Positions 1 to 56,879 of a DNA stretch of 64,000 nt are shown piece after piece. The position numbers were made by a program, and so were the translations under genes. This stretch comes from Octopus vulgaris (lineage: Eukaryota): positions 126,108,001 to 126,172,000 of the forward strand of contig OX597815.1 of the NCBI GenBank assembly GCA_951406725.2. Reading direction: 5' to 3'. The first letter of the stretch is position 1; every line of letters begins with the position of its first letter. The notes under the pieces are model-generated. The model was not told the origin of the DNA and did not search any database. It worked only from the letters and a program-made list of their open reading frames with translations.

Positions 1-1187
1 ATCTGGAAGACCTGGTCTTTTATTTGTCTGTGACGAAAGACACTTCTCTTGTACCGTTCTGACCTCGTCTGGAGAATTCTTATTTTTCCCGTCCAAATAA
101 TTCTGAAGACTACGGAATAAATGATAATCAGATTGGGCAATGTCTGGCAAATATGGTGGGTGAGCATTGTCCCCCATTCAAACTGCTCCATCCTTTGGAA
201 TGTCATCCTCACTGTATGTGGCCGAGCATATTTTGATGGAAGAACACATTGCGTCTTGAAACCAAAAATGTTTTCTTCCCTTCTAGCGCTAACTTAAGCC
301 GCTCACGCTGCTCGCTCTAGATCTGCTTTGCTATTGTTTGGTTTTGGTTTAAAAGTTTAAAGTGGACTAAACCTTTCATATCCTGCCAAGCAGATAACAA
401 CACCTTACTTGGGTGAAGACCTTCTTTAGCCTGGGGTACCGGTTTTTTTCCCTTTCCCTACCCACTGTCTTCGGTGCTTGACATTTTTATAGAGAACCCA
501 TTTCTCGTCACCAGTCGCTATTCGGTCCAGAATGGTTCATTCGTGAGACGGGACAACAAAGAAGGGCACACATTGATTTCTGCAGGCGATTAGACATATG
601 AAGTTTGTGAGGAACACATTGACCCAATTTGCTGACATTTCCGAGAGTACGCAGGTGTGGATGAATGGTTGAACGACCAAATCCAAGCTTCTCTGCTAGT
701 TGCTCAACAGTTACGATGAGATTTTGTTCCAGCAGGATTTGCACAACTTCCTCGTCGAGCGCTGCAGATCTTCCGGGATGAGGCTCGTCTTATAGGCTAT
801 AGTTTCTGTCTCGGAATTTCTGACACTGGCTTTTATTGTCCGATCCCCATATACTGCATTAATATTCCTCACACTTTCTGTTACTTTGTTGTCTTTATTT
901 AACTCATGACTCAAAATATGCCGAATATGCTCCTTTGTCACTTCCATTATCGGACTGCACTCTTCAAAACTGCCACAGTCCAAGTAATGTCTAAAATGAA
1001 GCAGGACCACTTGATTCGAGCATGTAGATGATTTAGATCTCATACAGAAGCAGTTGTTGAAGCTGAAGGTGGCTTTATTTGATAACATTATAGAAAAGAA
1101 GGTTTATTTTTATCCTCATAGCATTTTTGATAAATAAAATTGTTTTTTATAATCATAAATCTGTCCTCAAATATCTTACGCACCCTG
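1..1187 (-). mobile_element. Decayed mariner (DD34D) transposon, runs off the window start; transposase ATG near 947
   Basis: Minus-strand translations give MEVTKEHIRHILSHELNK, LGQCVPHKL (WVPHEL-like), IATGDEKWVLY (~480-525) and HPPYLPDIAQSDYH (YSPDLAPSD-like, ~120-165), with frameshifts. Confidence 0.9.
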
Positions 1188-1929: not shown

Positions 1930-2187
1930 TTCTAGGCTTCCTGTAATGGTGCAATGCAGGATGTTCAAGAACATTCAACGGTGTTACGGCTAGATCACCT
2001 AATACCTCGCTGCAAAATTCTAGCCACTATACATTCTTTATTTTCTCTCCTTGTTTCTTTCTGTGTTGCTTTCTGTGGACGAGCGTAGGCTCGAAACGTT
2101 AAATACTTTTTCACTTTCCGAGCGTTATACTAATACATCTGTTTGCTGTCTACACCACCTGTTTGTTGTCTGTTTTTTTGTTTACAC
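1930..2187 (+). mobile_element. PLE-like terminal repeat fragment with a minimal HHR-like motif (family G)
   Basis: ctgtggacgagcgtaggctcgaaacgtt at 2073-2100, followed by the family tail ccgagcgtta...ctaatacatctgtttg that also occurs at 27760-27897, 53447-53570 and 56536-56650. Confidence 0.6.
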
Positions 2188-21371: not shown

Positions 21372-23565
21372 TGCGCATGCGTGTTGTCAGTGTTGTTCGT
21401 ACTACTGAACAGAAGTCACCACGCAGGTTTGAAGCTGGTGAAATAGTGATTAAAATGCTCAACTGTAAGGTAATACTTTTGTTTTTTGGGTCCAGTGGGG
21501 GTTTGTTGTTTGCCGTAATTATTTTTTTACAAACAAGAAGTCCTCACTGTTTTCTGGACTCTGGTCTGCCTACAGTAGAGTGAATAGTTTTTCTCACTTA
21601 ATTGTGAGAATTGTTGTTTGGGAGCGTATCTCGCTTCCAAAAATTCGTTCAGTTTAAGTAAATAGTTTTTCTCGCTTAATTATGAGAATTGTTTTGGGGT
21701 GTATGTCACTTCCAAAAATTTGTTCACTTTTAGTGAATAGTTTTTTTCAAAAATTGTGAGAATTCACCGAAGACACAACTTTTTTTACCAATTATTGTGA
21801 AAGCTGTGTTCCAAGTTGTGGCTTTCCGGATTCAAGTCGGATTACCAAATAGGCCTGGATTACCGAGTGGCCAGAATATTTTTTGCTTGCTCATTTTTTT
21901 TTAACTGTAGACTGTTTTCTTTCCTTCTTCAATCTTTTTTGTGACTTTCTTTTATTGAACTATTTTCCTTTTTCTTCCTTCCTATTTGTTGTGACTTTCT
22001 TTTGATTTCTTTCTTTTTCTTCCTTCATTTTTTGAATTTTTATCTGAACTTTTTTGGACTTTTTATTTTAAAAAGACATGGCAAAGAACAGGGACAACGT
22101 TTTGGAGTGGGAAATTGTCCCACCCAAACAGCGGTTGAAAGACTGTGAAGACCACTGAAAGACTGTCGCTCGACACCATCACCATATTTCAAAAGAATGT
22201 TGTCGAAAGGGAGTTGGCAGAGTATCTGCCAACTATTAAATTCATCTCCAGGGGTGTCAAATATGCAACGGTGTGGTTGCTATTTGACACCCCTGAGGAG
22301 GCTCGCAAATTTTGTTTCTTCCCACATATTGTGAGAGGAAGTTGACGAGGGCTTGGGTCTGTGGTTTGCCACCCAGAATAGAACCTGAGTGGATAGAGGA
22401 CACTATCCACCGGGATTTGGGTGGCAGCGGAGCCAAGCTCCTCAATGTAAAAATTTTACCTTCGGCTGATTGGGTGGGGTCAAAAGCGGTTTTGACCTTG
22501 TGGACCCAAACAGTCAAAAATCTGATATTTCCAGATGTTTTGAAAATGGCCGAGTGCAGGTACCCGATGATTCTTGAGTGTCGCCCCTCCCCAAGTGTCA
22601 TCGGTGCCTGGTGCATGGCCATATAAAGAAAAACTGTTCCCAGGAACAAAGTAAGGTCCTAGAGCAGTTGGTTGAGACCTCTGCAGAAGAGGGAACGGAG
22701 TCAGCCGAGGAGGAGGACTCCTCCTCAAAGAAGGGCCGCAAGAGGAAGAAGGTGAGCAACAATGGGTGCTCACCGAAGGATCCTAGGGATGAGAGAGGGG
22801 AGGCGAATCTCCCGGTCACGGACGAGACGCACCCTCTCTCAGATGAGAAAAAAGAAAAGAGGAAAAGGAAGAGAAGTGGGACATTGCCTTCAGTTGGTGA
22901 CATAGTAGAAGAATATTCCGAAATCTCATCGGTGGGGGTTGTGCCACCGGTAGGGGAAGAGACACCGTTGGGGGAATTGTGCCGCCGACGGTAGAAATGA
23001 CTACTTCGTCCTCGGAGGAAGACGAATTATTGGTCTTCTTCTACAGAGGCGAGGAGGTGGAGAAGGTGTTTGAAAAGTACCTTTAGCCTGCACACGGAAT
23101 CCCGAATGGCCTCCGCAGATAGCTGTGGAGGTCATAACGTTGCCCGTGTTGCGTAGGCTGAAGGACTCAATGAGGAATATCTCTTGTGGCCGTGCGACGC
23201 CGTCACGTCACTCGCTTTGTGCTTGAATGAGGCGTGGGTGAATGCGGAGGATGAGGTCACAAGCGAAGCTGGGGAGGAATATGGATAAGAGGTTGAAAAG
23301 CCTCATTGAAAGTTACTAGTTTGGAAAAAAGGTAAGAGGCTTAGTGCCTCATTTTGTTATTGAATATTGTGAACAATGTAAGAGGTTTGCTGCCTCACGA
23401 ATAATATAAGAGATCAATGTTCTCGGGAAAGAACGATCGGTGGGCGCCGCTTTTTCCCCCCATTAATCATCCTTTTCATTTTCCATTTCATATACCATTA
23501 TGTCTGTGTCAAGCCCGCAGCTTCCTTTCTCTATGTAAGGCCTTTGTGGCCAATATAATGAAATA
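21372..23565 (+). mobile_element. Non-autonomous L1/Tx1-like (ORF1-only, HAL1-like) retroelement with a 15-bp TSD
   Basis: TSD aagaagcttg(t/c)ttcc at 21357-21371 and 23566-23580; ~75-bp tandem repeats in the 5' UTR; ORF1 relic with a zinc knuckle; AATAAA at the 3' junction; no RT/EN coding seen. Confidence 0.8.
22078..23086 (+). pseudogene. Frameshifted ORF1/gag-like protein (RRM-like region, CCHC knuckle, acidic/basic tail)
   Basis: ATG at 22078; IKFISRGVKYATVWLLFDTPEEA, PTYCERKLTRAWVCGLPP, and KCHRCLVHGHIKKNC (CX2CX4HX4C) spread over three frames. Confidence 0.75.
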
Positions 23566-27042: not shown

Positions 27043-27754
27043 TATATGTATGTATATATATGTATTTGTATTTCTATGTAGATGTATATATGTATATATA
27101 TATATATGTATGTGTGTGTGTATATACACATGCATACATATATATATGAACTTATGTGAGTGAATATATATATTCATAGTTCACACACACATATTCATTG
27201 TTGTATTTTTGTTAAATGTTTCAAATATATTTATGTAACGCTATGCCATCCTGAATTTTGTACTCATTTGTAAAATATTCTTTGACTAATTTTTATGCGA
27301 CATTTATTTTTGTCTCTTTCTCTTTCTTTGCTTCTTTTTGCCTTCTTTCCACTCTCTATCTCTCTTTCTCTCCCTAATACTTTACTTCTTCCTACGTTCT
27401 GACTTTCTATCTGCCGTTCTCTAGTCTTCTGTCCTGCAGGACATTTTCATTTCCGTTTGGGTTTCCCCATTGTCAGTCTGTCTTGCGGCCGCACAGCTTT
27501 TTTGTTGTATATATTTTATTCCGTAGTGTTTGTTTTCGTCATTGTGCTGTACATTGGTTAGCTATTCCCAGTGACTTTTTTGCCACTGGCGCCACCAAGA
27601 GTGAACAATATCAACATTAAAAGCGCGAAAGTGTGATGATCTTTTGGACATTGACTGATGAGGAATAAGTAACGAATTTTCTGTTTGTTATATTTTTGTA
27701 ATATTTCTTTTCGTTGTGTATTTATTAAATTGTTCAAATATATGTATACTGTTG

Positions 27755-27892
27755 TTTCTTTCTGTGTTCCTTTCTGTGGAAGAGCGTATGCTCGAAACGT
27801 TAAAGACATCTTCACTTCCCGAGCGTTAAACTAATACATCAGTTTGTTGTCTACACCACCTGTCTTTGTCTTTTGTTCTTTTTGTGAATTCT

Positions 27893-27897
<5 letters not shown>
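27755..27897 (+). mobile_element. Family G PLE-like repeat ending directly in (TA)n
   Basis: cttt-ctgtggaa-gagcgtatgctc-gaaacgtt-aaag, followed by the family tail and ttctccc(ta)n. Confidence 0.65.
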
Positions 27898-27946
<49 letters not shown>

Positions 27947-32974: not shown

Positions 32975-34251
32975 CGAGGGGCGTTCAATAAGTAATGCCC
33001 CCGACCCACTTCCCATAGCAGTAGAGCAACGAAACTTGGCACAGTTATTGGTCTTTTTCTACATAGGAACCACCCAGAGTTACGCATTTCTTCCATTGTT
33101 TGATGCTGCTCTGGAGACCGTTTTTGTAGAAGACCCCAGCTTGGTCCTCCAACCACGACGTGACTTCAGAAATCAAGGCTGCATCATCTGGGAAACGCTT
33201 TCCTTTCAAAAACAACTTCATGATTGGGAAGAGGTGTAAATCAGAGGGTGCAAGGTCAGGAGAGTAGGGGGATGGGGGAGGAGTTAATAGCCGCACGCCT
33301 GTGCTTCTGATCTGGCGACACGCGAGTTGTGGACCGGAGCGTTGTCCTGCAGGAGGTGGATGCCTTTGCTGATCTTGTCCCGCCTCTTGATTTTGATAGC
33401 TTCTCTTAATTTCCTCAAAAGTGAAGCATAATAGGCTCCTGTAATTGTGGTACCATTTGCCAGGAAATCTGTCATCACTACTCCGTCCTGGTCCCAGAAG
33501 ACTGAGCATGGCCTTGCCAGCGGAGGGCTGCACCCTTGCCTTCTTTGGAGGAGGTGAGTCACGGTGCTTCCACTGCATTGACTGGGCTTTGGTCTCTGGA
33601 TCATAGTGATGGACTTAGGTTTCATCCTGTGTAATCAGTCTTTTGAAAAATTTTGACTCATCTTCTTGGCACATCTCCAAATTCATCCTCAAGCACTCGA
33701 TGCGTTCTTGCTTCTGGAAAGGTGTGAGCAGCCTGGGAATCCATCTGGCAGACACCTTTTGCATATGCAAATGGTCATGAATGATAGTTTCCACAGACCC
33801 GGTACTAATCTTGACCTCATGGGCTATTTGGCGAATAGTTATGCGTCGATCTTCCAAAATGGCAGCATCAACTTGACGGACAGATGCCTCATCAATGGCA
33901 GAAGGGGGCGACCAGATCTGGGAGCTGTTTCCACAGAGTTCCGACCATGTTTGAATTTACGAAGCCAGCATTTTACAAGGTCATATGATGGGGCATCATC
34001 ACCATAAGTTACTTTCATTTCATCAAAAGTCTCCCGTGGTGTGCGTCCTTTCAAATACAAAAACCGGATCACTGCTCGACACTCAACAGGCTCCATTTCA
34101 CACTTGACTCAGTTCAAATACCTGTAAATCAGAAACCACAATTAGTTCAGGGCTGTAATCTATAGAGATATAAATAATTGCACATGCAAAATTTCAGCTA
34201 GATCAAACAACTGCAAGTGGGTCAGAGTCATTACTTATTGCACGTCCCTCG
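32975..34251 (-). mobile_element. Full-length mariner element (irritans-like), ~1.28 kb, TA TSD
   Basis: TIRs cgaggggcgttcaataagtaatgcccccgacccact and cgagggacgtgcaataagtaatgactctgacccact, both flanked by TA inside (CATA)n. Confidence 0.95.
33045..34096 (-). pseudogene. Frameshifted mariner DD34D transposase
   Basis: MEPVECRAVIRFL..., WIPRLL, ITQDET, LLQDNAPVH and YSPDLAPSDLHLF split over four ORFs. Confidence 0.93.
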
Positions 34252-42250: not shown

Positions 42251-42585
42251 TCATTTATTTATATTTATATAACTTTAAGCAGTGTTTTATTTATATTTCG
42301 TGAATGCATGTTGTACATATATAGACTAGGTTCTGATCTATATCTGTAAACCACCCCTATCTTATCGGAACTATTTCGACAGGGTGCAAGCATGACCATG
42401 TGGTTAAGAGCTAATGTCCCCACTCAGCCTTAAATGGCACCCACGGACCATGTTTTCTGGGTTATTTCCCTTCATCGGCACAGGATAACAGTTGATTTAG
42501 AGATAGCAGTACAAGGTCTTGTTCGAGGTATGCACTTTTAAAGTGACACACAGTTACTGGTCTCGTAAAGAGGAAAACCATTAGC

Positions 42586-42847
42586 TTAAACTTCTGAGCA
42601 AGAAGTAGTAACAGTGCTACAGAGTAAAATCTATTTGCCAACGTAAGTTGACAGTCCTGATTAGGAAATAACCCAGAAACCATCATCCAAAGGTACTTAA
42701 GGCTGAGTGGAGACATTAGCTCCCTTGTTCGTGGTATAAGGACGCAGCTGTGCGTCGGTAGCCAGTTGGAAATGATGTTTTCCTACGTTGGCAAATAGAT
42801 TTTATTCTGTAGTACTGCTACTACTTACTTCTTGCTCAGAGGTTTAA
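42586..42847. mobile_element. MITE/foldback-like element with ~60-bp imperfect TIRs
   Basis: ttaaacttctgagcaagaagta...aaaatctatttgccaacgta (42586-42645) versus tacgttggcaaatagatttt...tacttcttgctcagaggtttaa (42784-42847). Confidence 0.75.
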
Positions 42848-43434
42848 AACTGCATATGTATATATATATATGTACGTAAATGTAAACAATGCGAATGAGT
42901 ACTCAACACCGTATTGATGAACAAAGATTCTATATTTGTGTATTAAGACTACCATTGGTTTCATGTTAAGGGAATATTTTAATATCTTAACAATTCTTTT
43001 AAGTCGATCACATGGAGGGATAGTATTCGTCTCCATTTTGGATTAAAATCCGAAAAAATATGGGAATTCACGATAAAAACTTGCGAGAAATTTTGGTAAA
43101 CAAAACAAGATATTAAGGGGGACAACACTTGGGCAACAGGTTTTGAGTGATTATCTTCTTTGGGTTTAACTTTTAGGGAAAATTGTGCTGAATGAACTTT
43201 GTATATATTATGTTATATCCTGGGCATATGTAGTATTCGTATGTTTGCGTGTCAGGGAAGTATATCACAAGGGCATGTGTCTTCTGTGCGTAGAGTTCGT
43301 ATGATGTATACATATAATGTTCACGTTCAGATAAAAACTTGTTCTGGTAGGACCGGTGGAGTGGGTGATGGTTCCTCTTTGAGATGCTGGAGTGTAAAAT
43401 AGTGCTTGTGAATGTAGGGAGAGAAAGTTTCATC

Positions 43435-51326: not shown

Positions 51327-51920
51327 CATACATTTGTAGTGGATGCGTGGATGTATTAATAAATACATAAGTGTTTTGTAATAAATTAAAGATTTATTTT
51401 CACTACATCAATTTGTAAGCAATGCTACACATCGCTTGTACAAAATGCATATTAAATAGTGGTTGCAAATAATACATATTAAAGGAATGCATAATACATG
51501 ATACACATTAAAGCAGAATATGTTTGATGGTGTGTGTGTGTGTGTGTGTGTAAATCATGCAGGACAGAGTCACCTTTCTGAATATTCTTTCGTCGTCCTC
51601 ATAAATGCGTGGCGTTCTCTTAAGCGTTGGTTCGGGTTCTCTGCAGATACCTATTTCTCCGTTCTATTTATAACATCTCAAATAGCCAGAAAAATAGATA
51701 TACCGCAAGAGTGTTATCGCGTACAGTAGGTCGCTGGTCGTCCTGTTAAACTTCGTCTGACCTGCTCGGGTCAGAGGTCGAAGGGAGACGATCCATCATT
51801 TTTTGTCAGAACAAAGAGATTCTGATTTCGCGCCTTTTTGTGCATTGGTATTTTACGACCAATGATTCTTGGGTCTGATTTCGAATCCAAGCTTCGAGAA
51901 GGAAGTGCTAATTCTTACAC

Positions 51921-52692
51921 ATTTATAAAAATAGGGTAAAGTAAAATAGTTTACTTTACTACACACTGAGCTTTTTAGAAATAGCAGCCAAAAATTTGGC
52001 TATTCCTTCAACTGCAAGAAAAAGTCTCCCAGACAATGCATACTCAGAAATAACTCACATAGGTATAAGGGAAAAATAACGAAAGATCACATCCATATAA
52101 GATACCCGAGGACATATAAGATACCTGTTTCTGGATTCGTGGGTTAAACGCCAACATTTCCTTCATCAGCTCAGAGATTTCTTCTGATTTAGATTTGAAA
52201 GTACTAAGAATCAAACATACCCGTCCGATATATGTAACATCGGACAAACCATGCCAGACCACCAGTACTAGCGAATCCAAAAATACAAATGAGATCTATT
52301 ATTCTCCCTATCCACCCACGTGAGTCAAAGAGTAGTACATTTCTACAGAGGCAAAACTGTAGTTCAAATTCTTGGGGAGAAAGCATTATATTGTCAATAA
52401 AAAAGGGTAGAATTAATTAATTATTAATTAATTCGACCGAGCAGTGTTCGGTATGTAAAAAGACCATTTACGGTATATTTGAAATATTAATTTATAAATA
52501 TAGGGTAAAGTAAAATAATTTACTTTACCACACACCGAGCTTTTTGGAAATAGCAGCCAAAAATTTGGCTATTCCTTCAACTGCAAGAAAAAGTCTCCCA
52601 GACAATGCATACTCAGAAATAACTCACATAGGTATAAGGGAAAAATAACGAAAGATCACATCCATATAAGATACCCGAGGACAGCCTGTTTC
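51921..52692 (-). mobile_element. Head-to-tail partial tandem (569-bp period) HHR-bearing element, PLE pLTR- or retrozyme-like
   Basis: ~190-bp direct repeats at 51921-52114 and 52490-52683; HHR at 52105-52176(-). Confidence 0.75.
52105..52176 (-). ncRNA. Type I hammerhead with an altered stem III
   Basis: ctgag-CUGAUGA-a-gga...tcc-a-GAAA-ca...tg-UC-ctcgg; predicted cleavage after position 52111. Confidence 0.55.
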
Positions 52693-52750
52693 TATTTATT
52701 TGCTTGTTGTTGATACACCAGTCTTCGTCTTTTGTTTTTCTATCAATTTC

Positions 52751-52788
<38 letters not shown>

Positions 52789-52949
52789 TACTAATAACCA
52801 CTATAAGCTGTAGTGGAGAACAGTTCACACGTGTGATGAGGCTGACCAAAGGATTTTATATTTAGATATATCTGGGGTACTTATATGTACTCATGATTTT
52901 CGCTGCGGCTGTCTTCCATGGGCGCATGTAAGTATTTCATTTATGTATT

Positions 52950-53025
52950 TTCGTATTTTCTACTGAAGAGGAAAAAATCCATTATGAGATTATTTCCGAA
53001 ATTGATTCAATATAGAAATAACGAA
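52950..53025 (+). ncRNA. Canonical type I hammerhead ribozyme
   Basis: Stem I tttcta/tagaaa (extended by ttcgt/acgaa), CUGAAGA at 52963-69, stem II ggaaa/tttcc, GAAA at 52998-53001, stem III ttga/tcaa, AUA cleavage after 53012. Confidence 0.8.
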
Positions 53026-53165
53026 CTTTTAAAAAAAGTTCTATTGGCTAACTTTCCCCGATTTCAGCTCTACGTGTTTTTTGTAGCGAGTAAATAAAAT
53101 GTGGAAATTGACGATTATCAGCATATTGGCATAGAAATAATTTTCTTTAGCCCTTGTTTATAAGT

Positions 53166-53236
<71 letters not shown>

Positions 53237-53238
<2 letters not shown>

Positions 53239-53567
53239 TTTACTTGTTTCAGTCATTTTACTGTGGTCATGCCGCAGTCAAATCGACCCCCTGGACTTAT
53301 TATTTGTAAGCTCGGTGCTTATTCTATCGGTCTCTTCTGCCGAATTGCTAAGTTACGGGTACGTAAACACACTAACATCGGTTGACAAGCGATGGTTGTG
53401 GGGTGGGGAGGGAGACAACCACAGACACAAACACACGCACACATATATGTTGAAAAGCGTAGGCTCGAAACGTAAAAGACTTTCTCACCTTCCCAAGCGT
53501 CAAACTAATACACCTGCTTGTTGTTTATGCACCTGTCTTCGTCTTTTGCTTTTCTCTAAATTTCAAC

Positions 53568-53627
<60 letters not shown>

Positions 53628-53812
53628 CATATACATATATGTGTATATATATACGACGGGCTTCTTTCAGTTTCCGTTTACCAAATCCATCACTAGGTTC
53701 TGGTCGGCCCAAGGCTTATACTAGAAAACATCTGCCCAAGGTGCCACGCAGTGGGACTGAACCCGGAGACGTGGTTGGGAAACAAGCTTCTTACCACAGA
53801 GCCACACCTACG
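53237..53812 (-). mobile_element. Family A SINE with a nested family G fragment (53447-53570)
   Basis: Tail cttttacttgtttcagtcattt; body; head gacgggcttctttcag...aagcttcttaccacagagccacacc. Confidence 0.85.
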
Positions 53813-53833
53813 CCTGTCTGTCTGTCTATCTGT

Positions 53834-53902
53834 CTGTCTGTCTGTCTGCCTGTCTACCATAGAACGTACTTACCGATGTACTTATATCTCTCTTCTCAAT
53901 CA

Positions 53903-53964
<62 letters not shown>

Positions 53965-54033
53965 TGATTGAGAAGAGAGATATAAGTACATCGGTAAGTA
54001 CGTTCTATGGTAGACAGGCAGACAGACAGACAG
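53834..54033. repeat. Perfect ~200-bp palindrome centred on (TA)n
   Basis: tgtctaccatagaacgtacttaccgatgtacttatatctctcttctcaatcactctgtg-(ta)n-exact reverse complement. Confidence 0.92.
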
Positions 54034-55159
54034 CCAGATAGACAGACAGACAGACATACATACAGACAGACAGATAGATAGATAGATAGATTGATAGATA
54101 GATAGATAGTGTAGCATACCAGTGCTGTTAAAAATGATATAAAATTGATGTCTTGTTAAATCCTTGTTATTAGATTTTTTTTCTGAAACGGTACATTTAA
54201 AATATACTGTTGTAAATTGCAAAATAAAGTATGAGGAATATTTGTGCCGTTAGTTATCCATCGACTGCCATTTAACTTTTACACATATCCATATGTGTAA
54301 ATATATAAATATATAAATACGTGTAATATTTACTTACATATACACATATCTACAAACATACATACTTATCTAGGTATGTATATGTATAATATATAAGCAT
54401 ACTAACGCAGGCGACCTTAAATCTTTAGTACAAATCTTGATAAAATTTGAATTGACATTTATATCTACGTTCGTGTTGCGAACTAATTCTTCGGATACAG
54501 AACGGAAAGATTTTTAATTGACCATGGCATTATTTTATTTACTAAAAAGCACTTCACAAGCACTTCCAAAACGCAGAGAGAGAGAGAGGGAGGCAGAGAA
54601 AGAAGCACATAAGGAAATATGTGAACCAGAGAGGGAGTCATGTTGTAAACTTTACTACGGACTCCTGCATTTCCTTCTATCCGGCCCGTTCCTTATTTAA
54701 ACTTATCTTAAACTTTCCACTGTCTACTCGCTCTCTCTCTTTCCCTTTCTCTCTGTCTGTCTGTTTCTCTCTTTCACTTTCTCTTTCGCTGTCTTTCTCT
54801 CTCTCTCTCTCCCTCTCTCTCTCTCCCCCCTCTCTCTCTCACACGAGCGCCCGCGCCCGGACACACTTAAAAAAACCCATTTATTTTATTCTCCATTCTT
54901 ACTCACTGTGAGAATTGGAATATAATTCTAATTCTCCTAGTTTTTACGCAGTATCTCTCACGAGTTTTTCCTTGTTATAGTTGCTGTTGTTGTTGTGCTT
55001 CTTCTTCTTCTCCTTCTTCTTCTTCTTCTTCTTCTTCTTCTTCTTCTTCCTCGTTCTGTCTCTTTCTTATTATTCTGCAGGACGCTACGTTCTCTCATTC
55101 TTATTCTCTCTTTCTTCTTCTCCCCTCCCTCCCCCTCTCTGTATATATATATATATGTA

Positions 55160-55617: not shown

Positions 55618-55917
55618 ATATGCTCTAAATTTTCAAAATCCACCCCCACCGCACGATCTTCTCAGCAGCAAATATAAACTGCTGATTTAATTTCAAAATT
55701 AGACAAAAAATCATTAATTAATAAATATAAGGGTAGCAAAAAATTCTAGAAAAAATTCTCCGGTACTGCTTCTTGTCTCTTTTTTCTAGAATTTTTTGCT
55801 ACCCTTATATTTATTAATTAATGATTTTTTGGCTAATTTTGAAATTAAATCAGCAGTTTATATTTACTGCTGAGAAGATCGTGCGGTGGCGGTGGATTTT
55901 GAAAATTTAGAGCATAT
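55618..55917. repeat. 138-bp inverted repeat with a 24-nt spacer
   Basis: Arms 55618-55755 and 55780-55917; about 3 mismatches by eye. Confidence 0.92.
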
Positions 55918-56316: not shown

Positions 56317-56879
56317 ATCCAAACATGAAAACACAACAACGCGAGGACGTGGAACAAGTATAGTGTTATTGGTCGCTCAGGAAAGGAAAGAAATCCCTCC
56401 GAAACTATATTTCCCTTTCTCTTCACGATCTAGCAATATCTATCGCTTCTCTCTCACTTCGATCTTTAGCAGGTCGGTCTCCCACCCTTTTCACATCAAC
56501 TAACATTAACGGTTTTTTTTCTCTCCTCATCTATTGTTTCGGTTGAAGAGAGTAGGCTCGAAATGTTTAAGATTTCATCCATATTTCGTGAGCGTTAAGC
56601 TAATACGCCTTGTTTGTTGTTCTTGCACATCGTCTTTGTTTTCTTTTTTATATATGTGTGTGTGTGTGTGTTTGTGTTTGGTTGTTGGTGTATGTGTGCA
56701 TGGGTGGGTTGGTGTAATTTTCTAGGAAAGATGTAGCTTTGATAAACGTGGATCCGTCAATGAACTTGCTTAAAGTGCAACAAATTCTTGTATTCATAAC
56801 GTTTGAACTCCTTCTAGCATTTAAAACGACAATTATTTACATATTGCTTTCTTGAATAGGATATGAAATGAAATCTATG

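What the first reader, a model, noticed from the sequence alone, without database searches (positions are those of the whole stretch)
51921..52692. 569-nt tandem unit whose repeat boundary coincides with a hammerhead cleavage site
Seen: ~190-bp direct repeats 569 bp apart. On the minus strand both begin at GUC|CUCGGG (C17 at 52680 and 52111). The downstream site has a full core (CUGAUGA...GAAA). The upstream site keeps only GAAACAGGCUGUC. The unit shares the motif taccc(t)tatatttat.aattaat with the arms of the 55618-55917 inverted repeat. Inference: cleavage at successive sites would release a ~569-nt non-coding monomer, as in retrozymes, and this copy looks like a reverse-transcribed >1-mer.
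Basis: partly seen in the sequence, partly recalled or inferred. Interest (0 to 1): 0.7.

Follow-up and report, generated by a model that had tools for sequence, protein, structure and literature searches.

The report
Hammerhead retrozyme-like insertion, 1.4 units long
This 773-base non-coding stretch of an animal genome holds one whole and one half hammerhead ribozyme motif in direct repeats, and is likely a small Penelope-dependent mobile element (retrozyme-like) copied back into DNA for about 1.4 units, a known kind of element with a few unusual details.

Summary
The repeat is real: 194 nt, 97% identical, 569 nt apart, with cut sites at 52680 and 52111. The title claim fails. Homology runs 13 nt past the cut, to 52693, inside the ribozyme core. 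The unit is 561 nt; the downstream copy gained 8 nt by re-copying nearby sequence. The motif shared with the 55.6-kb foldback is at chance level.

The insert (52693→51921, minus strand) has no RT or endonuclease frame. Its repeat and interior pair with each other far better than with random DNA (−32.4 against −7.2 ± 3.7 kcal/mol; 0 of 200), and pairing spans the internal junction. It therefore looks like one folded RNA unit read 1.36 times, with a possible 6-bp target duplication. The hammerhead is of the Penelope (minimal) type, has an extra A before GAAA, and is predicted to be blocked by a 12-bp helix.

Best reading (0.65): a non-autonomous Penelope-dependent element of the non-LTR retrozyme kind. 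Main rival (0.2): two truncated 3′ ends of an ordinary Penelope element. No second copy could be reached, so family status, expression and cleavage are untested. Two further hammerhead-like repeats lie just upstream.

The parts
51921..52693 (-). Whole insertion, 773 bp, about 1.36 copies of a 561-nt non-coding unit (35% G+C)
52490..52693 (-). Upstream, 5'-truncated repeat (204 nt), starting inside the hammerhead core
52674..52693 (-). Hammerhead half-site: AGAAA, near-palindromic helix III, C17 at 52680, 3' arm of helix I
   Evidence: helix III self-duplex -10.0 kcal/mol, no hairpin alone
52133..52489 (-). Single-copy interior (357 nt), predicted to form 90 pairs with the repeat part
52272..52283 (-). 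Predicted anti-ribozyme strand; 12 bp (one G-U) with 52139-52128, covering the 3' strand of helix II and GAAA
   Evidence: pair probability 0.97; 5 of 300 shuffles
52105..52175 (-). Complete type I hammerhead motif, minimal/Penelope type: helix I 52175-52170 with 52110-52105, CUGAUGA 52169-52163, extra A 52162, helix II 52161-52133, extra A 52132, GAAA 52131-52128, C17 52111
52113..52125 (-). 13-nt re-copy of 52106-52094 inside helix III (net gain 8 nt)
51921..52132 (-). Downstream repeat (212 nt); ends 190 nt 3' of the cut; 5 substitutions, all in its last 57 nt
52694..52699 (-). ATAAAT abutting the 5' end; candidate target-site duplication of 51926-51921, which also matches the element's own sequence
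   Evidence: hexamer frequency 0.13% per position
52701..52755 (+). Neighbour: 3' fragment of a second hammerhead-like repeat family, head-to-head with the element, ending in (TA)n
52957..53018 (+). Neighbour: separate well-formed type I hammerhead motif (C3 52963, G12 52998, H17 53012)

Best explanation
The stretch 52693-51921 (minus strand) is a non-coding insert made of about 1.36 copies of a 561-nt unit carrying a Penelope-type hammerhead motif, and is likely a non-autonomous, retrozyme-like retroelement that was reverse-transcribed by a Penelope-like element's enzyme from a circular or tandem RNA. Shown: the anatomy, the absence of an RT or endonuclease frame, and the junction sequences. 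Predicted: one strongly self-paired RNA in which a 12-bp helix locks the ribozyme off, and a near-palindromic helix III that would work as a dimer. Inferred steps: (1) A tandem donor is transcribed, and dimeric hammerheads cut it to 561-nt monomers that can be ligated to circles. (2) A PLE RT/GIY-YIG protein nicks AT-rich DNA and starts internally, 190 nt 3' of the cut site, probably primed through ATAAAT microhomology. (3) RT passes the ribozyme once, where the 13-nt re-copy arose then or later, continues for a further 0.36 unit and stops 13 nt beyond the second cut site. (4) Repair leaves a 6-bp duplication. This copy is probably dead or nearly so. It has one core, which could in principle cut both sites (the upstream one in a type III arrangement), but each active fold costs 4.5-11.9 kcal/mol.
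For: Repeat-to-interior pairing gain is -32.4 kcal/mol against -7.2 +/- 3.7 for random window DNA, 0 of 200 as low. The 45 nt after the internal junction pair with the 51 nt before it (-8.5 kcal/mol; 5 of 1477 random window pieces; only starts 191, 193 and 198 among 334 starts in the unit), so the junction lies inside a folded domain, as expected for a continuous circular or tandem template. The unit folds at z -10.2 linear and -10.7 circular on the ribozyme strand, and -5.3 on the other strand. The hammerhead motif is far above chance and fits the PLE minimal consensus CUGANGAH G..C GAAAN-palindrome-NUH (PMC4209133). No RT or GIY-YIG Pfam match was found in 80 frames of the window, including the two longest of the unit. 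A 5'-truncated partial tandem, an internal RT start downstream of the ribozyme and AT-rich targets are PLE traits (PMC11167929; PMC8557442). Animal retrozymes are argued to be non-autonomous PLE derivatives of 51-972 bp (10.64898/2026.07.22.740005). Two other hammerhead-like repeats lie within 300 bp.
Against: Only one copy could be seen; no second copy exists in the window. Strong folding alone is not rare here: 3 of 38 control windows fold as far below their shuffles, and 2 of 38 are as strand-asymmetric after correcting for skew. The hammerhead fold is not the minimum-energy fold: 196 of 200 shuffles fold at least as well, and helices I and III have probability 0.06 or less in five nascent-transcript folds. 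Rfam gave no hammerhead match. The extra A before GAAA breaks the usual C11.1-G12 step; AGAAA appears in 1 of 56 rows of the published alignment. One circle read twice should give identical repeats, but they differ by the helix III change and 5 clustered substitutions (P about 0.002-0.004). The short AT hairpin right across the junction is not significant (521 of 2953), and the 51-nt window for the junction test was chosen after seeing the fold. In the anole PLE, RT starts at a site not homologous to the target, unlike the microhomology proposed here.
Confidence: 0.65

Rival explanations
1. Ordinary PLE partial tandem: two independently 5'-truncated 3' ends (204 nt and 569 nt) of an autonomous Penelope-like element, joined by a template jump. 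There is no natural 561-nt unit, and the fold is that of a structured 3' UTR.
For: The hammerhead is of the PLE minimal type, not the canonical retrozyme type. The repeat length of 204 nt matches pLTR sizes (193-218 bp in Adineta, PMC3846280 passages). Two templates would explain why the repeats differ. Repeat-to-interior pairing is also possible in a linear 3' UTR.
Against: The truncation would have to land within about 10 nt of the one point where the downstream sequence pairs with the end of the repeat (3 of 334 starts). The 357-nt interior has no endonuclease-like frame.
Confidence: 0.2
2. A one-off deletion derivative of a PLE, or unrelated DNA captured between two pLTRs and moved in trans.
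For: Capture of unrelated sequence between pLTRs with target duplications is described in Adineta. No second copy was seen.
Against: The interior is not unrelated filler: 90 predicted pairs with the repeat, and 0 of 200 random pieces do as well. It also supplies the 5' half of the ribozyme.
Confidence: 0.08
3. Local DNA-level duplication or an assembly artefact that doubled about 200 bp of one old repeat.
For: 137 nt are identical and then 5 differences fall in 57 nt, a mosaic that gene conversion or haplotype merging can make. The 13-nt re-copy looks like a repair or slippage scar.
Against: The copies are 357 nt apart, not adjacent. The upstream copy keeps the simpler, palindromic helix III, so it was not copied from the present downstream copy. 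Pairing spans the junction.
Confidence: 0.05

Closest known systems
Metazoan non-LTR retrozymes (PMC7229834; 10.64898/2026.07.22.740005)
   Same: Non-coding, G+C under 50%, type I hammerhead, head-to-tail organisation, strongly self-paired predicted circle, no LTR or primer-binding site seen, likely PLE-mobilised.
   Different: Only 1.36 units and one complete ribozyme. 561 nt against about 170-400 nt for the tested invertebrate circles, though within the 51-972 bp of the 2026 survey. The ribozyme is minimal/PLE-type rather than canonical. It is predicted to be blocked by self-pairing, which PMC7229834 describes for plant retrozymes, viroids and only some mussel circles.
Penelope-like elements with pLTR hammerheads (PMC4209133, PMC11167929, PMC8557442)
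   Same: Minimal hammerhead with an extra base after A9, G10.1-C11.1, long helix II and palindromic helix III; 5'-truncated partial tandem; about 200-nt direct repeats; 3' end well downstream of the cut; AT-rich site.
   Different: No RT/GIY-YIG ORF between the repeats. Extra A before GAAA (1 of 56 published rows has AGAAA). No inverted copy of its own family at the 5' end; a fragment of another family sits there instead.
Non-autonomous Chlamys PLEs such as MRC1 (PMC8557442, passage)
   Same: ORF-less elements forming pLTRs and head-to-tail insertions.
   Different: Most Chlamys elements lack canonical hammerheads and occur in green algae; similarity to an autonomous partner could not be tested here.
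Plant LTR retrozymes and hammerhead viroids
   Same: Predicted circle size near 600 nt, and a ribozyme locked by a complementary strand (comparison as stated in PMC7229834 and the PMC5680766 abstract listing).
   Different: Type I rather than type III motif; no LTR ends or primer-binding site seen; animal host.

Membership tests
non-LTR retrozyme | Type I hammerhead motif in the repeat unit | tested here: met
   constrained fold -8.1 (native) and -7.3 kcal/mol (circle junction)
non-LTR retrozyme | Two or more consecutive units with complete hammerheads (the 2026 preprint's 'active' class) | tested here: not met
   one complete motif and one half-site; it would fall in that paper's monomer class
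non-LTR retrozyme | Non-coding unit of low G+C | tested here: met
   35% G+C; longest stop-free frame inside the element 83 aa; the two longest had no Pfam match
non-LTR retrozyme | Highly self-paired predicted circle | tested here: met
   z -10.7, 68% paired; 3 of 38 control windows fold as strongly
non-LTR retrozyme | Canonical hammerhead (4-bp helix II, loop 1-loop 2 contacts) | tested here: not met
   long interrupted helix II, extra A on both sides; no Rfam match. Mussel retrozymes also lack most of the contact bases
non-LTR retrozyme | Target duplication longer than 4 bp when present | tested here: inconclusive
   6-bp ATAAAT at both ends, but it also matches the element's own sequence
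non-LTR retrozyme | Multi-copy family with tandem arrays | not testable with these tools
   no host genome collection; window, GTDB, plasmid and phage searches negative
non-LTR retrozyme | Expression as monomeric linear and circular RNA; self-cleavage | not testable with these tools
   no reads or assay
autonomous Penelope-like element | RT plus GIY-YIG ORF between the pLTRs | tested here: not met
   357-nt interior; no RT or GIY-YIG match in 80 frames
autonomous Penelope-like element | Minimal hammerhead consensus in the pLTR | tested here: met
   fits the PMC4209133 consensus except for the extra A before GAAA, seen in 1 of 56 rows
autonomous Penelope-like element | Partial tandem with 5'-truncated upstream copy | tested here: met
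autonomous Penelope-like element | 30-40-bp tail from two RT start sites | not testable with these tools
   needs many copies; both repeats here end at the same base
plant LTR retrozyme | Type III hammerheads in LTRs, PBS/PPT, 4-bp duplication | tested here: not met
   type I topology; the repeats lack TG...CA ends, read directly from the sequence

The most novel reading that the evidence does not exclude
A new, large (561-nt) animal retrozyme family that keeps a PLE-type minimal hammerhead with a two-sided A insertion in the core and switches it off in the circle with a built-in 12-bp anti-ribozyme helix, like plant retrozymes and viroids. This locus would be a snapshot of rolling-circle reverse transcription (internal start, slip at the ligation junction, stall at the lock helix), beside fragments of two other hammerhead families that share the same PLE machinery. 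It would be an intermediate between pLTRs and classical retrozymes, and, if the host is an octopus as I suspect from recalled repeats, the first described in a cephalopod.
Probability: 0.3. Interest if true: 0.6.

Novelty: new member of a known kind. Interest (0 to 1): 0.37.

Why it matters
Non-LTR retrozymes and hammerhead-bearing pLTRs are known, and their link has been argued in print, so the kind is not new. If the family is confirmed, it would give a test case for two open points: whether PLE enzymes copy circular RNA for more than one turn, and how animal retrozyme circles avoid cutting themselves. It would also test whether a core with an added A before GAAA still cleaves.

Tried and rejected
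Link to the 55618-55917 foldback: rejected as chance.

Rfam: no match at gathering score in the window; no hammerhead family among 74, 3 and 10 weak matches.

Relatives in DNA collections: GTDB exact 21-mer gave 0. A two-part core pattern gave 35 prokaryotic loci, none with homology beyond short matches (4 hits, best E 0.12). Plasmid and phage blastn gave none.

Protein searches with the two longest frames of the unit gave none, and 0 of 5 frames were found by exact look-up. A control frame from an abundant SINE-like repeat also gave none, so these negatives say nothing about copy number.

Host identity: an atlas search of a mariner remnant shows only animal-type clusters. Octopus is my recollection of its repeats and was not confirmed.

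The short AT hairpin across the junction is not significant. No tRNA gene was found in the window. A-to-I editing as the cause of the two G/A differences opposite C was considered and left as speculation.

Full report
Setting. The window is eukaryotic, about 35% G+C and rich in microsatellites. It holds mariner transposase remnants whose nearest atlas clusters are animal. Its SINE-like and simple repeats look to me like those of an octopus; this is recalled, and no call confirmed it.

Observation. The direct repeat is real: 51921-52114 and 52490-52683, 194 nt, 97.4% identical, 569 nt apart. GUC|CUCGGG lies on the minus strand with C17 at 52680 and 52111. The alignment shows that homology does not stop at the cut: AGAAACAGG is shared at 52693-52685 and 52132-52124. 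The upstream copy therefore begins 13 nt 5' of C17, between helix II and GAAA, and the spacing there is 561. The apparent boundary is caused by a change in the downstream helix III, where 9 nt replace 1 nt and make a 13-nt repeat of the sequence just 3' of the cut. The contiguous stretch 52693-52133, closed into a circle, rebuilds a complete hammerhead with the short helix III. The motif shared with the 55618-55917 foldback is at chance level: E 0.09, and 20 of 26 matches against 19 of 26 at unrelated AT-rich sites.

The ribozyme. Helix I has 6 bp (two G-U). CUGAUGA is followed by an extra A. Helix II opens with G10.1-C11.1 and has about 10 interrupted pairs. A second extra A precedes GAAA. 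Helix III of the upstream copy is a near-palindrome that forms no hairpin alone but self-pairs at -10.0 kcal/mol. A descriptor that I relaxed to allow these features found 2 motifs in the window and 0 in each of 30 shuffles. The motif fits the consensus for PLE minimal hammerheads, which are thought to work as dimers and cleave poorly in vitro (PMC4209133, text parts 1-2 of 4). In that paper's supplementary alignment 1 of 56 rows has AGAAA; by row order it is the Cotesia bracovirus PLE (supplement parts 1-2 of 3). Against activity: the hammerhead is not the minimum-energy fold (196 of 200 shuffles fold as well), helices I and III have probability 0.06 or less in five nascent folds, and Rfam gives no hammerhead match.

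The unit as one RNA. The 569-nt cut-to-cut sequence folds at -179.7 kcal/mol, z -10.2; as a circle z is -10.7 on the ribozyme strand and -5.3 on the other. Controls temper this: 3 of 38 tiled windows fold as far below their shuffles, the three showing longer perfect helices of 14-55 bp against 11, and 2 of 38 are as strand-asymmetric after correcting for skew. Two tests are more specific. First, the 204-nt repeat and the 357-nt interior gain -32.4 kcal/mol by pairing together (90 pairs), against -7.2 +/- 3.7 for 200 random pieces, none as low; the interior is not filler. Second, the 45 nt after the internal junction pair with the 51 nt before it at -8.5 kcal/mol, matched by 5 of 1477 random window pieces and by only 3 of 334 starts in the unit (191, 193, 198). 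The junction thus behaves as natural continuity. The left window was chosen after seeing the fold, and the short AT hairpin right at the junction is not significant (521 of 2953). A 12-bp helix (52283-52272 with 52139-52128) covers the 3' strand of helix II and GAAA, with probability 0.97 and 5 of 300 shuffles reaching that length. Forming the ribozyme costs 7.3 kcal/mol in the 561-nt circle. In transcripts of this locus the single core could pair with either cut site; the cost is 4.5-11.9 kcal/mol for the upstream site and 10.0-11.2 for the downstream site.

Ends. The 3' end (51921) lies 190 nt past the cut, in AT-rich sequence. ATAAAT abuts the 5' end (52699-52694) and forms the last 6 nt at the 3' end, where it also matches the element's own sequence; this hexamer occurs at 0.13% of positions. 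One base further on lies a 5'-truncated piece of another repeat family in head-to-head orientation (52701-52755), so co-insertion of the two is an alternative.

Unexplained. All 5 substitutions between the repeats fall in the last 57 of 194 nt (P about 0.002-0.004). Four are at paired positions, and the downstream base weakens or breaks the pair in each, though the fold was computed with the upstream bases. A single circle read twice would not give this. A tandem donor with unequal units, a template switch, later conversion or haplotype merging would. Circle and oligomer templates cannot be told apart here.

Coding. The longest stop-free frame inside the element is 83 aa. Of the 93 frames of 100 aa or more in the window I scanned 77, leaving out 16 in simple repeats, plus 3 shorter frames in or beside the element; none matched RT or GIY-YIG.

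Relatives. No second copy lies in the window. GTDB, plasmid, phage and protein searches were negative, and a control frame from an abundant repeat also failed, so they are uninformative. Viral and metagenome collections stayed unchecked.

Mechanism. The most likely account (0.65) is a non-autonomous PLE-dependent element with a 561-nt RNA unit, inserted as 1.36 units. PLEs form 5'-truncated partial tandems (PMC8557442, passages). The anole PLE nicks AT-rich DNA and starts RT internally, downstream of its hammerhead, using mostly uncleaved RNA and without target homology (PMC11167929, parts 1-2 of 4). Animal retrozymes are expressed as self-paired circles of about 170-400 nt, mostly with an unblocked ribozyme (PMC7229834, passages, parts 2 and 4 of 6 and section 14; supplement unreadable). 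A 2026 preprint argues that they are non-autonomous PLE derivatives of 51-972 bp, and found cleavage in 1 of 9 tested dimers (10.64898/2026.07.22.740005, parts 1-3 of 5; supplements closed). The main rival (0.2) is two truncated 3' ends of an ordinary PLE. Capture of unrelated DNA between pLTRs (PMC3846280, passages) and local duplication are weaker.

Membership. It works like a non-LTR retrozyme and carries a PLE-type ribozyme. It is not an autonomous PLE (no ORF). It fails the two-complete-units rule for an 'active' retrozyme and lacks a canonical hammerhead. Copy number and expression are untested, so I file it as a likely new non-autonomous PLE or retrozyme-like member, not a proven retrozyme.

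Novelty. Searches for hammerhead + Penelope + Octopus (4 of 5 listed), hammerhead ribozyme + cephalopod + circular RNA and retrozyme + octopus (2 of 3 listed) showed no title or abstract on a cephalopod retrozyme. The O. vulgaris repeat annotation lists 31 recently active PLE families and does not mention ribozymes in its main text (PMC13282606, part 1 of 3 and passages; PMC8967140 passages likewise). Its Zenodo library and unread supplements may already contain this sequence under another label. Verdict: a real feature of a known kind, with some unusual details; interest 0.37.

Noticed in passing
window 52957-53018 (+), within 52785-53165: A second, well-formed type I hammerhead motif (6-bp helix I with an extension, long helix II with one mismatch, near-palindromic 4-bp helix III, cut after UA) in a 380-nt piece between two (TA)n tracts; probably the 3' end of another PLE family.
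   Followed up: partly
window 2051-2183, 27752-27931, 53448-53601, 56537-56649, 52701-52755 (+): A repeat family with a minimal-hammerhead-like motif whose core has U at position 6 instead of A, ending about 90 nt later, mostly at a microsatellite; five pieces in 64 kb. The descriptor passed only the copy at 27774.
   Followed up: partly
window 51921-53601: Three different hammerhead-type repeats, a SINE-like piece and several (TA)n tracts are packed within 1.7 kb, suggesting an insertion hot spot.
   Followed up: partly
window 51930-51977 against 52499-52546: All five substitutions between the repeats cluster in the last 57 nt, after 137 identical bases; two are G/A opposite a predicted C partner.
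   Followed up: partly
window 55618-55917: Foldback with 138-nt arms, 98% complementary, 24-nt spacer; MITE-like. No significant link to the element.
   Followed up: partly
window 53809-54058: Near-perfect palindrome with 125-nt arms centred on an (AT)n tract; may be a real inverted duplication or an assembly artefact.
   Followed up: no
window 42501-43069 and 22101-22669: Other strongly folding regions: an imperfect long inverted repeat at 42.5-42.85 kb and a G+C-richer segment with many short hairpins at 22.1-22.7 kb.
   Followed up: no
window 714-1103 and 33045-33956 (-): Broken mariner-type transposase remnants (Pfam HTH_48, Transposase_1).
   Followed up: partly
window 51550-51920: The 3' flank is single-copy in the window, richer in G+C and CpG than its surroundings and has short open frames; possibly an exon or promoter-proximal sequence. 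One frame had no Pfam match.
   Followed up: partly
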